A stretch of 64,000 nt of DNA from Escherichia coli (GTDB taxonomy: Bacteria; Pseudomonadota; Gammaproteobacteria; Enterobacterales; Enterobacteriaceae). Below are positions 6,801 through 9,800 of this stretch, in pieces. The stretch lies in NCBI RefSeq assembly GCF_003334355.1, contig NZ_QOWP01000001.1. One strand, 5' to 3'. Within the stretch, counting starts at the first letter, position 1; every line of letters starts with the position of its first letter. A program made the position numbers.

Positions 6801-9800
6801 AATGCTGGCGCGTTTCTTTACAACACTCAGCGGACACTTAAGGAATTGCTGCCCGGAAAGCAGATATAGCTCTTTTTCGCTACCGTTAATTTCAAGTGTA
6901 AATCCGCCATCTTCAGCTACCAGTAACATGGCGCTATTCAGACCAACCAGCGGGAATTTCTCTACCGATGCTGGTAATAACAAGCGACCGATATAGTTGT
7001 AATTAAAGCTGGCAGACACTTCGCGATAGCGCAGTTTGCCAGGCAACAACATTAATTCACGATTCCCCGCACCGTTAATGATGTTTGTTGTCCCTTGTTG
7101 ATTGCCCTGGCTACTGTCGTTAACCTCAACAAAACCAGACTGAAATCCAGGATAAGGGAACAACACACTGTCGCTTTGACCAAGCTGCAACGTTCGGCTG
7201 CCTGCCACCCGCGCTTCGAGTTGCAGATCCTGACTCTCTTCATCCTGTTCAGAGAAGCCTTTCACATCCACCAATACCGCACCCAGCAAATCGTCTGTAC
7301 CACTGGCACCCAAATTAACGCCATAGCGACTGACAGCCAGTGTAGAGCTGTAAGTCCCCGTAAAGGCCGAGAGATGATCATGATTCTTACGGTCATAACT
7401 GTCAGATACGGTAGCGTAGACATTTCCGTATTGACCATCCCAACGCCCGTTAACCGCGCTGTTTATGGTATCGGTGTTCAGGCCCCCAACGGTTACGCCA
7501 AGTTCTTTATGGCTGAATGAATCGTTATAAAAAGTATGGGATAACTGCCATGACGTTTGATCGCCATCCTGATCGCTATAACGATAATCCGTAGAAACAT
7601 TGGTTGAATGGCTGTTGTTATTGCTGTCCATCGTTGGCGTGTCAGATAACGAAAACGATAAGTACAAGCCGTTGTCGTCGTTATCGCCACCGTTGTCATT
7701 ACGATGGAAAACACCAACCGAAGTACTCAAGATCCAGTCACGCATCACAAAAGCGCGGGAAGCGCTAAGTTGTACAGTTTCGGAGATACTTTGCGCAGTT
7801 GTCTGGCGAAGATAGTTATTTTCAAAGCTCTGCTGTTTATCCCAACGCAAACTATCATCAGTGTTATTTTGTGTGCGGGAATAACCCAGCATCATATTCC
7901 AGCCGACAAAATTCTGTGAAACCGTCGCGGAAATACTTTCATAACAGCTTAAGGCGTTATAGCTCTCTCTGCTGTCGGTTGCACAAGCATCGCCGTCAGA
8001 GTTGGTCCGATAAAAGCCCAACGTCGGCCATCCCGAATTACTCCAGTTGGCCTGTTGCATATCACCTTTGCCGCCGTCATCGTTACGGAACACGCTGGCG
8101 CTGATTGCAAGATTCCCTGCCCCGCCTAAATTTGCCGTCCAGTCATTACCTAACTCGAAAGCACTCACATTATCGGCATTCGCCAGCCCTGCGTAGAGCT
8201 CATATTGCGGATGTAATGGCAGGCGTACCCCCAGTTGATAAGCTGAACTTTCATCATCAGAAGCCTGTGATGTAGTTTTACCTGCCTGTAAGAACCATTG
8301 CGCATTTCCGTCCGTCAGACCGCCTGTTTTGGTAAACGGTACTAGCTCGGTGCGGGTGAGTTGGTTATTTTCATAGACTTTTAACGCTACGCTATAGCTA
8401 CCCGGCGGAAAGGAACTGGTATCAATAAATTGCGAACCACTATTGAGATAAAACGATCCCAGAAGTTGCTCATTACGATAAGCGTCAACACGAGAATTGC
8501 GCGAAAGCAGGACCATTACCGGGGTTCCCTGCTGGCTTTGCGCCTGGTTTAAATAGCTAAGAGTCGACCCGATACGCATCCCGTCGATTGCACCGAGTGG
8601 CAAAAAGTTAAAGGTAAAGTTCCCGCCTTGTGCATTAAATAGCGTGCGGTTGTCCATGCGCCCCGCCTGCACATAATAACGACGTAAAAAATCATAACGA
8701 TAATAGAGATCGCTGACATCAGCATTACTGTCACTGACATCATCTGCATCATAACCGTTGAAATTCCAGTGTGCACCAATATAGCTATTTTCTGTTATTC
8801 CCAGCGCACCGTTTCCCTGAATAGACAACAATTGGTAATCATCCTGTGCCAGAACATTGATGTCTTGCTGATGTATAAAAGCGTTAACCGTATTTTTGTC
8901 TGGATTTAAATATAATGACTTCGCATCGAAAGCTGAATTCCATTGCGGATTAATAAACAACGTTGCCGAACTTTCTTCATCATTATAGATTATTTCCAGC
9001 GTATCGGTATTCAGAAAACCACACCCTGAGTCAGTACGTACATAACCGCAAGCCAATTCACCGTGGCGAGCTAGCGGCTGCGATAATTTTTCTTTCACTA
9101 TATGCGCGATTTTCTGATCGTCGACATCCAGTTCCAGCTTGTTATATAAACTTGCTGGATCAAGAAATGTTACGGTATCAAGATTAACCATTGCATAATA
9201 TTTACCGAGATTTTTCCCTGAAAAATAAACCTCGATATACTCCTGCTGTCCCTGAGCAATAACCTCAAACCCTGCGGGGATTTTGGTTAATGCCGCCTCT
9301 GCCGGGCTGAGACTCGCCAGGATCAAAAGAGCCAGTAATTTTTTATCCATGGCAATCCTGAAATCCATAACAAATACTAAAACAGTTAAAATAAAGGAGG
9401 GCTAGCCCCCCTTTGTTATGTGTTAATTCTGTTATCCGGATTAGATATCCTGAGACAGATAAATGCTTACTACGCCACGGTAGATACCTGTTTCCAGAAC
9501 ACCTTTGGTGGTTTGAGCAAACATCAGATTTTTAGCCAGAGAACCATTAGTTAACGCATCGGAAGCAAAGATTTTGGTTGCGGTAAAAGTGGTTGCCGCA
9601 TCAGCTTTAATTTCTTCGCCGCCCCAGGTTACTGTCAGCGGAACAATCTTGCTAGCGTCCAGGCTTTGAACCAGTTGCGCCGGGGAAACTAACTGCATTT
9701 TTACATCTTTGGTAACGTCGTTAGACCAGATTTTGGTCATTAACTGGTAAGATTGCAGACCCTGACCCGGCAGATATTGCATTTCTACTGCTTTCGGCAG

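What the first reader, a model, noticed from the sequence alone, without database searches (positions are those of the whole stretch)
9393..9414. Stem-loop between pilin and usher genes
A GC-rich inverted repeat followed by a U-rich tract on the transcript lies in the 72-nt gap between the major pilin and usher genes. Such structures in fimbrial operons attenuate readthrough or stabilise the pilin message, keeping pilin in excess over usher.
Basis: seen in the sequence. Interest (0 to 1): 0.3.

Follow-up and report, generated by a model that had tools for sequence, protein, structure and literature searches.

The report
Terminator-like hairpin after a pilin gene
A small RNA hairpin followed by a run of U sits just after the major pilin gene of an uncharacterised E. 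coli "CS1-like" fimbrial operon; it is real and most related operons have one at the same junction, but it is an ordinary, already known way of making more pilin than assembly machinery.

Summary
On the minus strand, 9414-9393 reads AAAGGGGGG-CUAG-CCCUCCUUU. It forms 9 pairs (one G-U) with dG about -13 kcal/mol and is followed by AUUUUAAC.

It lies between the major pilin gene (9941-9441) and the usher gene. The usher gene starts at 9350 in RefSeq, giving a 90-nt gap.

The operon has the order chaperone, pilin, usher, tip adhesin. It is the chromosomal class-5/alpha "CS1-like" cluster, inserted between exuT and exuR in about 35% of complete E. coli genomes and absent from K-12.

Taken alone, the hairpin is only moderately above chance (p about 0.03). 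The comparative evidence is strong:
- All eight Escherichia alleles keep it.
- 20 of 24 related operons (usher identity 24-84%) have an unrelated-sequence hairpin at the same junction.
- A U-rich tract follows on the sense strand only, and the other junctions lack such hairpins.

The best reading is a leaky intrinsic terminator and 3' decay barrier. It would keep chaperone-pilin mRNA in excess over usher-adhesin mRNA, as reported for the homologous CFA/I operon. No transcript data were available.

This is a new member of a known kind, of low interest.

The parts
9393..9414 (-). RNA hairpin AAAGGGGGG-CUAG-CCCUCCUUU (5' arm 9414-9406, loop 9405-9402, 3' arm 9401-9393)
   Evidence: Sequence; dG -13.2 kcal/mol, z -2.76; terminator-like scan hit; kept in 8 Escherichia alleles
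9385..9395 (-). U-rich tract UUUAUUUUAAC. The first three U are also the base of the stem. 7 of the first 8 nt after the G/C core are U.
   Evidence: Sequence; invariant or near-invariant in the alleles (UUAUUUU or UUCUUUU); U tract on the sense side only in 17 of 20 related operons
9441..9941 (-). Major pilin gene (166 aa, CS1-type fimbrial major subunit); its stop codon lies 26 nt upstream of the hairpin
   Evidence: ORF; RefSeq annotation of the 99.9% identical IAI39 region; NCBIfam CblA/TcfB-like
9971..10687 (-). Periplasmic chaperone gene (238 aa), first gene of the operon; 29-nt gap to the pilin gene, with no hairpin
6666..9350 (-). Usher gene (894 aa; start 9350 with AGGA at 9359-9356; alternative in-frame ATG at 9368 has no Shine-Dalgarno)
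   Evidence: (identical 894-aa cluster with TcfC, Usher_TcfC and CooC_C domains)
5581..6669 (-). Tip adhesin gene (362 aa, CfaE/CblD family); its start overlaps the usher stop by 4 nt
9366..9374 (-). 3' arm (UUUGUUAUG) of a possible outer helix that pairs with 9412-9420. It can form only in read-through RNA and it holds the upstream AUG 9368.
   Evidence: Perfect 9-bp inverted repeat; 19 of 2000 shuffles reach 9 bp; part of the MFE fold in the window allele and the commonest allele but not in the two most divergent alleles; weak covariation
9412..9420 (-). 5' arm (CAUAACAAA) of the possible outer helix; overlaps the AAA at the base of the hairpin

Best explanation
The hairpin is an RNA element on the sense (minus) strand of a four-gene class-5/alpha chaperone-usher operon. 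It most likely acts as a leaky intrinsic terminator.

Proposed mechanism: RNA polymerase starts upstream of the chaperone gene. It transcribes the chaperone and pilin genes, and a fraction of polymerases release at the G/C stem plus UUUAUUUU. The rest read through into the usher and tip-adhesin genes. The same hairpin then sits at the 3' end of the short chaperone-pilin mRNA and blocks 3'-to-5' exonucleases. In read-through transcripts that are cut downstream, it stops decay at the same point. The net effect is more mRNA for the subunit needed in thousands of copies, and for its chaperone, than for the usher and tip adhesin, which are needed about once per pilus.

Shown here: the structure, its stability, its conservation at this junction across the family, and its strand specificity.
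Inferred: that termination is partial, that the hairpin prolongs mRNA life, and the resulting protein ratio.
For: - Structure and energy.
- Escherichia alleles: eight alleles (90-100% identical, plus one at 84% usher identity) all keep a hairpin of 8-11 pairs with dG -12 to -18 kcal/mol. Their loops differ. The stem changes preserve pairing (G-U to A-U, and A-U to G-C in the manual loop-anchored comparison of the window and GE3 hairpins). The U tract is kept. 92.5% of cells are paired, against 52-69% when the partners are slid.
- Family: in 18 of 24 class-5 operons from Escherichia, Klebsiella, Salmonella, Enterobacter, Serratia, Rahnella, Pantoea, Burkholderia and ETEC plasmids, the pilin-usher gap holds a core hairpin of dG <= -12 kcal/mol. 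In each of the 18, at most 6 of 200 shuffles fold as well (none in 14). With two large-loop hairpins the count is 20 of 24. Their sequences are unrelated.
- Specificity of the junction: chaperone-pilin gaps of 30 nt or more hold such a hairpin in 2 of 13 cases, and neither is followed by a U tract. Usher-adhesin junctions mostly overlap or are short, and none holds one. Usher coding sequence has 1.3 such hairpins per kb.
- Strand specificity: U on the 3' side exceeds A on the 5' side in 17 of 20 (Wilcoxon p 5e-4). The sense RNA folds better than the antisense in 13 cases against 3 (p 0.013).
- The Burkholderia cbl homologue's hairpin is the top terminator-like site of its locus.
- Literature: rho-independent stem-loops at the 3' end of subunit genes are described as a general fimbrial device (PMC3373541). 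In the homologous CFA/I operon cfaB mRNA exceeds cfaA and cfaCE mRNA, and differential decay is reported (PMC6090259; PMC8923064 and PMC5927463).
Against: - No transcript data exist for this operon, so neither 3' ends at the hairpin nor a coverage step could be checked.
- The G/C core is short (6 pairs, one of them G-U). The tail after the full 9-pair stem starts with A, so termination could be weak or absent.
- For CFA/I the citing papers speak of differential decay and mRNA stability, not termination.
- Several relatives (CS17/19, CS14, Buttiauxella, the Tcf-like Salmonella locus) have a hairpin with a poor U tract. Three relatives with 22-42 nt gaps have no hairpin at all.
- Covariation within Escherichia is not statistically compelling: one doubly changed pair (in the outer helix, not the core stem), and 46 of 500 shuffles reach the observed score.
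Confidence: 0.55

Rival explanations
1. Decay barrier only. Polymerase reads through completely. After endonuclease cuts in the usher-adhesin part, 3' exonucleases stop at the hairpin (or at the larger nested structure), leaving a long-lived chaperone-pilin or pilin mRNA. This is the mechanism reported for CFA/I, malEFG and similar operons.
For: - Papers citing Jordi et al. 1993 describe the CFA/I case as differential decay or enhanced mRNA stability.
- The hairpin, rather than the U tract, is the most constant feature. 6 of 20 relatives have 5 or fewer U in the 10 nt after the core.
- In read-through RNA, a 9-bp outer helix can extend the structure to -17 to -23 kcal/mol in the window allele and the commonest allele.
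Against: - The U tract is sense-specific in 17 of 20 operons, and here it is 7 U of 8. The protective hairpins catalogued in E. coli K-12 typically lack this (PMC5927463).
- The two models are not exclusive.
Confidence: 0.3
2. Translational control of the usher. The hairpin is the inner part of a larger structure whose outer helix (9412-9420 with 9366-9374) ends 6 nt before the usher Shine-Dalgarno. That structure masks the upstream AUG or modulates ribosome or regulator access.
For: - A perfect 9-bp inverted repeat, reached by 19 of 2000 shuffles.
- One C-G to U-A covarying pair in three alleles.
- An invariant UUAUGGAU around the upstream AUG in 8 alleles.
Against: - The Shine-Dalgarno (9359-9356) and AUG 9350 lie outside the helix.
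- The helix is absent from the predicted fold of the two most divergent alleles.
- No comparable outer helix or motif is general in the family.
- It does not explain the U tract.
Confidence: 0.05
3. Efficient terminator that ends a two-gene chaperone-pilin operon, with the usher and adhesin expressed from their own promoter.
For: The hairpin plus U tract has terminator shape.
Against: - No promoter-like site lies in the 42 nt between the hairpin and the usher start.
- The homologous cfaABCE genes are reported to be transcribed as one polycistronic mRNA from a single promoter (PMC6090259).
- The short stem with a G-U pair argues against full termination.
Confidence: 0.03
4. No RNA function: a chance palindrome, or a DNA-level protein-binding site.
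For: Taken alone, the hairpin is only about 2.5-2.8 sd better than shuffles, and terminator-like matches are common (13 in 7 kb).
Against: - A hairpin recurs at the same junction in 20 of 24 operons with unrelated sequences. That excludes a conserved DNA motif.
- G-U pairs and the U tract make the element strand-specific.
- The other junctions lack it.
Confidence: 0.05

Closest known systems
Stem-loop downstream of cfaB in the CFA/I operon cfaABCE of enterotoxigenic E. coli (differential RNA decay; Jordi et al. 1993, known here only through citing papers)
   Same: - Same operon class and gene order (chaperone, pilin, usher, tip adhesin), with 29% usher identity.
- A hairpin at the same junction, 13 nt after the stop codon, with a similar G-rich 5' arm and CCCUCCUUUUU 3' arm.
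- Published excess of cfaB mRNA over cfaCE (PMC6090259).
   Different: - The CFA/I stem is longer (14 pairs with an internal mismatch), and its U run is paired inside the stem. The generic terminator scan therefore does not flag it.
- CFA/I is plasmid-borne and activated by CfaD/Rns. The window operon is chromosomal, uncharacterised and has no adjacent regulator gene.
- The gap sequences are not alignable.
Cable pilus operon cblBACDS of Burkholderia (abundant cblA transcript; from my own recollection of Tomich and Mohr 2004, paper not held)
   Same: Homologous operon: the pilin's best NCBIfam hit is CblA. A strong G/C hairpin plus U tract lies 18 nt after the pilin stop in B. ambifaria and B. 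stagnalis.
   Different: The stems are much more stable (-23 to -24 kcal/mol), the genomes are G+C-rich, and extra regulatory genes lie downstream.
papA-papH intercistronic terminator and stable processed papA mRNA of P pili
   Same: The logic is the same. The major-subunit message ends in an RNase-resistant terminator hairpin and outlasts the rest of the operon (as described in PMC5927463).
   Different: Different fimbrial clade (pi), in which the chaperone and usher genes are both downstream of the subunit gene. Stabilisation of papA also needs RNase E cleavage and a 5' stem-loop. No homology.
Intergenic hairpin between cssB and cssC of the ETEC CS6 operon
   Same: The hairpin lies between the structural subunit genes and the assembly genes. 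Mutating it changes transcript and protein output (PMC8923064).
   Different: Different clade and gene order. The experimental effect there was complex: more transcript but little protein without the hairpin.
Protective intra-operon hairpins of E. coli K-12 (malEFG type; Dar and Sorek 2018)
   Same: A stable hairpin at the 3' end of the more abundant upstream cistron.
   Different: That class was defined as lacking a U tract. This element has one.

Membership tests
Rho-independent (intrinsic) terminator | G/C-rich stem of about 5-14 pairs with a short loop (3-8 nt) | tested here: met
   9 pairs (5 G-C, 1 G-U, 3 A-U), loop of 4 nt, dG -13.2 kcal/mol
Rho-independent (intrinsic) terminator | U-rich tract immediately 3' of the stem, on the transcribed strand | tested here: met
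   UUUAUUUU after the G/C core (7 of 8). After the full stem, the scan finds 5 U in its best 8-nt window starting 0-2 nt downstream (tail AUUUUAACUG). The plus-strand version is weaker: 6 pairs, tail GTTATGTGTT.
Rho-independent (intrinsic) terminator | RNA 3' ends and polymerase release at the U tract, in vivo or in vitro | not testable with these tools
   No transcript data. Needs Term-seq, 3' RACE or in vitro transcription.
Intercistronic mRNA decay barrier (cfaAB, malEF, puf type) | Stable stem-loop at the 3' end of the cistron that must be most abundant | tested here: met
   The hairpin starts 26 nt after the pilin stop. The same placement (8-35 nt) is seen in 18 of the 20 relatives that have a hairpin.
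Intercistronic mRNA decay barrier (cfaAB, malEF, puf type) | Longer half-life of the upstream segment that depends on the hairpin | not testable with these tools
   Needs rifampicin chase with stem mutants. Reported for CFA/I only through citing papers.
Intercistronic mRNA decay barrier (cfaAB, malEF, puf type) | No U tract (the criterion used to separate this class from terminators in PMC5927463) | tested here: not met
   A U tract is present here and in most relatives.
Class 5 / alpha (CS1, CFA/I, Tcf, Cbl) chaperone-usher fimbrial operon | Gene order chaperone, major pilin, usher, tip adhesin on one strand | tested here: met
   10687-9971, 9941-9441, 9350-6666 and 6669-5581, all on the minus strand
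Class 5 / alpha (CS1, CFA/I, Tcf, Cbl) chaperone-usher fimbrial operon | Family-specific protein domains (Fimbrial_CS1 pilin; TcfC, Usher_TcfC and CooC_C usher; CfaE adhesin) | tested here: met
   Precomputed Pfam domains on the identical usher cluster P0001 and on neighbouring genes of the homologues. NCBIfam best hits are TcfA, CblA/TcfB, TcfC and TcfD. All are far below the equivalog cut-offs, so these are relatives, not orthologues, of Tcf or Cbl.
Class 5 / alpha (CS1, CFA/I, Tcf, Cbl) chaperone-usher fimbrial operon | Activation by an AraC-type Rns/CfaD regulator | not tested
   No regulator gene lies between exuT and exuR. The 295-bp A+T-rich upstream region was not analysed for Rns sites.
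Dispersed repeat (REP/BIME, ERIC, MITE) | Multiple copies of the same palindromic unit in the genome | tested here: not met
   Only the self-match in 64 kb with up to 3 mismatches. No Rfam family reached its threshold.

The most novel reading that the evidence does not exclude
The hairpin could be the core of a two-state element. Terminated RNA would carry only the inner hairpin. In read-through RNA, the flanking perfect 9-bp repeat (9412-9420 with 9366-9374) would close a larger structure just upstream of the usher ribosome-binding site. That structure would bury the conserved upstream AUG and one of two invariant AUGGAU motifs that lie 18 nt apart, a spacing and motif reminiscent of CsrA sites. 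Read-through and usher/adhesin translation, and hence the number of pili per cell, would then be regulated jointly rather than set passively.
Probability: 0.06. Interest if true: 0.45.

Novelty: new member of a known kind. Interest (0 to 1): 0.17.

Why it matters
It explains how an uncharacterised fimbrial operon, carried by about a third of E. coli genomes, can make much more pilin (and its chaperone) than usher and tip adhesin from a single promoter. It also shows that a terminator-like hairpin after the major pilin gene is kept across most of the CS1/CFA-I/Tcf/Cbl family even though its sequence is not conserved. This is useful for annotation and for anyone engineering these pili, for example ETEC vaccine antigens, where removing or changing the hairpin would change subunit stoichiometry. 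It does not change what is known about fimbrial gene regulation.

Tried and rejected
- Rfam search. Only sub-threshold matches, to the terminator hairpins of unrelated sRNAs (STnc430, STnc50, sraA). No family membership.
- Profile-based scan of genome contigs with a six-usher alignment. It failed because the alignment was too divergent. The single-protein scan returned only four Escherichia-type loci. Relatives were collected instead from plasmid tblastn hits and from exact-protein contig look-ups (one look-up found nothing).
- Covariation within Escherichia. Pairing is well kept, but only one pair (in the outer helix, not the core stem) changes on both sides, and the score is not significant. 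I therefore rest the case on the cross-family recurrence instead.
- DNA-level palindrome, protein site or dispersed repeat. Rejected on single copy, lack of sequence conservation between lineages and strand asymmetry.
- Internal promoter for the usher. None found.
- CsrA-like GGA motifs and the upstream AUG. Confined to the Escherichia lineage, and the middle GGA is not conserved.
- Shine-Dalgarno-like 5' arm as a real start site. No start codon at a usable distance in the window allele or in the GE3 allele, which represents the commonest identity class.
- Primary papers not held in the library: Jordi 1993 on CFA/I decay, Tomich and Mohr 2004 on cbl, Sakellaris 1999 on CooD. Their content is cited only through papers that quote them, or marked as my own recollection.
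Full report
**What is at the coordinates**

The plus strand 9393-9414 reads AAAGGAGGGCTAGCCCCCCTTT. 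The minus strand, which is the coding strand of the surrounding genes, reads AAAGGGGGG-CTAG-CCCTCCTTT and is followed by ATTTTAAC. As RNA it forms nine pairs (five G-C, one G-U, three A-U) around a CUAG loop.

- RNAfold gives -13.2 kcal/mol in a 36-nt context (z -2.76; 5 of 200 shuffles fold as well).
- The whole intergenic stretch gives -23.3 kcal/mol (z -2.5).
- The generic terminator scan lists the hairpin on the minus strand as the second-best site in 7 kb. Such matches are common, though: 13 found against 6.8 expected.
- The core hairpin beats 97% of dinucleotide shuffles of the gap.
- The sequence is single copy in the window, and no Rfam family reaches threshold. The weak hits are terminator hairpins of unrelated sRNAs.

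Taken alone, it is only moderately above chance.

**Context**

Four genes lie on the minus strand:

| Gene | Coordinates | Length |
|---|---|---|
| Chaperone | 10687-9971 | 238 aa |
| Major pilin | 9941-9441 | 166 aa |
| Usher | 9350-6666 | 894 aa |
| Tip adhesin | 6669-5581 | 362 aa |

The region is 99.9-100% identical to E. coli chromosomes such as IAI39 and CE10. RefSeq annotates these genes there as fimbrial chaperone, CS1-type major subunit, TcfC-like usher and CfaE/CblD tip adhesin. NCBIfam best hits are TcfA, CblA/TcfB, TcfC and TcfD. All fall far below the equivalog cut-offs.

This is therefore a class-5 (alpha) alternate chaperone-usher operon, the "CS1-like" type (PMC6033998, which attributes the name to Wurpel et al. 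2013, PMC3559732). It sits between exuT and exuR. In K-12 these two genes are adjacent, 129 bp apart. About 1,900 of 5,426 complete E. coli genomes carry the operon.

Three things point to ATG 9350 and a 90-nt gap instead: the RefSeq annotation, the 894-898 aa length of the homologues, and the AGGA at 9359-9356.

**Conservation within Escherichia**

I compared representatives of the allele classes (100, 96.4, 95.9, 90.6 and 90.0% identity over 221 nt), three more Escherichia loci and a relative with 84% usher identity.

- Every allele keeps a hairpin of 8-11 pairs followed by UUAUUUU or UUCUUUU.
- Loops differ: CUAG, GUAG, CUAGU, CUUGU, CUGGU, CAAGU, UAAUUG.
- Stem differences preserve pairing (G-U to A-U, G-C to G-U). 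In a manual comparison anchored on the loop, one A-U pair of the window is a G-C pair in GE3.
- Energies range from -12.4 to -18.1 kcal/mol.
- On the alignment, 92.5% of cells are paired against 52-69% for slid partners. Only one pair changes on both sides, and it lies in the outer helix, not the core stem. The covariation score is not significant (46 of 500 shuffles).

This is consistent with selection for the fold but is not proof.

**Conservation across the family**

I assembled 24 operons with usher identity of 24-84%. They come from plasmid tblastn hits (CFA/I, CS17/19, CS14, Serratia, Rahnella, Pantoea, Edwardsiella, E. fergusonii, Salmonella, Burkholderia, Sphingomonas). The rest come from contigs that encode homologous ushers (Klebsiella oxytoca, Salmonella, Chimaeribacter, Enterobacillus, Buttiauxella, Enterobacter, Scandinavium, Rahnella, B. 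ambifaria cbl, S. ureilytica).

- In 18 of 24, the pilin-usher gap holds a core hairpin of -12 to -24 kcal/mol that starts 8-35 nt after the pilin stop.
- In each of those 18, at most 6 of 200 shuffles fold as well, and none does in 14.
- Two more operons have large-loop hairpins of about -19 to -20 kcal/mol.
- The four without a hairpin are three operons with gaps of only 22-42 nt and the Sphingomonas cluster, which has a different gene order.
- The hairpin sequences are unrelated between lineages.

Controls from the same loci:

- Chaperone-pilin gaps of 30 nt or more reach -12 kcal/mol in 2 of 13 cases, and neither is followed by U.
- Usher-adhesin junctions mostly overlap by 4 nt or are short, and none has such a hairpin.
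- Usher coding sequence has 1.3 such hairpins per kb, so about 0.1 would be expected per gap.

The element is also strand-specific. U in the 10 nt after the G/C core exceeds A in the 10 nt before it in 17 of 20 operons (Wilcoxon p 5e-4). The sense RNA folds better than the antisense in 13 cases against 3 (p 0.013). This rules out chance and a DNA-level palindrome, and it points to a sense-strand RNA element of terminator shape.

**How it most likely works**

The stem plus UUUAUUUU has the anatomy of an intrinsic terminator. The core is short and slightly weakened, which suggests leaky rather than complete termination. No promoter-like site lies between the hairpin and the usher start, so the usher and adhesin must be expressed by read-through.

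Published statements fit this reading:

[quoted passage not shown] The same paper notes that the Tcf-type order, with the chaperone first, needs some discriminatory mechanism (PMC3373541).
- In the homologous CFA/I operon, cfaB mRNA exceeds cfaA and cfaCE mRNA although one promoter drives all four genes (PMC6090259).
- This is attributed to differential decay, with a stem-loop enhancing stability (PMC8923064 and PMC5927463, citing Jordi et al. 1993).

I therefore favour a dual role. Partial termination creates a chaperone-pilin mRNA whose 3' hairpin resists exonucleases, and the same hairpin halts decay of read-through transcripts that are cut downstream.

The split between the two routes is unknown. 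I give 0.55 to termination plus protection and 0.30 to protection alone. The 4-nt overlap of the usher stop with the adhesin start fits near-equimolar, low-level production of the two proteins needed once per pilus. This is inference.

**A possible extra layer**

A perfect 9-bp inverted repeat (9412-9420 CAUAACAAA with 9366-9374 UUUGUUAUG) encloses the hairpin and the U tract.

- Only 19 of 2,000 shuffles of the gap reach 9 bp.
- It is part of the predicted fold in the window allele and the commonest allele (-17.3 and -22.5 kcal/mol), but not in the two most divergent alleles.
- One pair switches from C-G to U-A in three alleles.
- Its 3' arm is transcribed after the U tract, so it can form only in read-through RNA. 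It contains the conserved upstream AUG.

It may simply strengthen the decay barrier. A regulatory role is possible but weakly supported, and I found no equivalent across the family.

**Comparison with known systems, and verdict**

The element behaves like the cfaB-cfaC stem-loop of CFA/I, the post-cblA hairpin of Burkholderia cable pili, the papA terminator of P pili and the cssB-cssC hairpin of CS6. It meets the sequence criteria of an intrinsic terminator. It does not meet the "no U tract" criterion used to define pure protective hairpins. It is not a dispersed repeat or an Rfam family.

It is a new member of a known kind, in an operon that has not been studied. Two corrections apply: the gap is 90 nt, and the chaperone gene is also upstream of the hairpin. 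No experimental read-out was available here. Interest is low.

Noticed in passing
window 9366-9374 and 9412-9420 (minus strand): A perfect 9-bp inverted repeat flanks the hairpin and its U tract (CAUAACAAA ... UUUGUUAUG). Only 19 of 2000 shuffles reach 9 bp. It is predicted to fold in the window allele and the commonest allele but not in the two most divergent alleles. One pair switches from C-G to U-A in three alleles.
   Followed up: partly
window 9345-9368 (minus strand): AUGGAU occurs twice, 18 nt apart: at the upstream in-frame AUG 9368 and at the annotated usher start 9350. Both copies are invariant in eight Escherichia alleles. The upstream AUG has no Shine-Dalgarno. The motif and spacing recall CsrA sites, but they are confined to this lineage.
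   Followed up: partly
window 9393-9414; L006 2372-2405 (CFA/I); L017 1212-1237: The hairpin arms look like a Shine-Dalgarno sequence (GGGAGG or AAGGAGG) paired to an anti-Shine-Dalgarno-like CCUCCUU. This holds in the E. coli CS1-like operon, its 84% relative and CFA/I, although the gaps are otherwise unalignable. In the E. fergusonii and Salmonella Bareilly plasmid operons, which lack a hairpin, GGGAGGG is the usher's own Shine-Dalgarno.
   Followed up: no
window 5489-10982: The whole operon is a 5.4-kb insertion between exuT and exuR relative to K-12 (129-bp gap there). It is present in about 35% of complete E. coli genomes. Some copies are decayed: a frameshifted usher in strain GE3, and IS5 or IS1 insertions in others.
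   Followed up: partly
window 6666-6669: The usher stop and the adhesin start overlap by 4 nt here and in most relatives, which suggests translational coupling of the two low-copy components.
   Followed up: partly
window 5518-5539: A G/C-rich hairpin lies between the convergent exuT and adhesin genes. It has a good T tract only on the exuT (plus) side, so the fimbrial operon ends at a hairpin with a poor U tract.
   Followed up: no
L006, L007, L020, L023, L026, L031 (usher starts): Many usher genes of the family have a weak or absent Shine-Dalgarno. This could be a second layer that keeps the usher low.
   Followed up: no
L013 (SFGN01000125.1): A 5.7-kb contig labelled 'MAG: Lachnospiraceae bacterium' carries this Escherichia operon at 94% usher identity. 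This is probably binning contamination.
   Followed up: no
proteins P0002-P0004: Predicted products of 1228-1234 aa combine CfaE and usher domains in a few E. coli records. They are apparent gene fusions or gene-calling artefacts at the 4-nt overlap.
   Followed up: no
L031 1303-2349 (CS14): CS14 has two tandem pilin genes 9 nt apart. The hairpin follows the second one only, consistent with marking the end of the high-copy block.
   Followed up: no
window 10688-10982: A very A+T-rich 295-bp region lies between the chaperone gene and the divergent exuR gene. It holds a promoter-like site at 10917-10888 (TTGATA, 18 nt, AATAAT, with TG). No regulator gene is adjacent.
   Followed up: no
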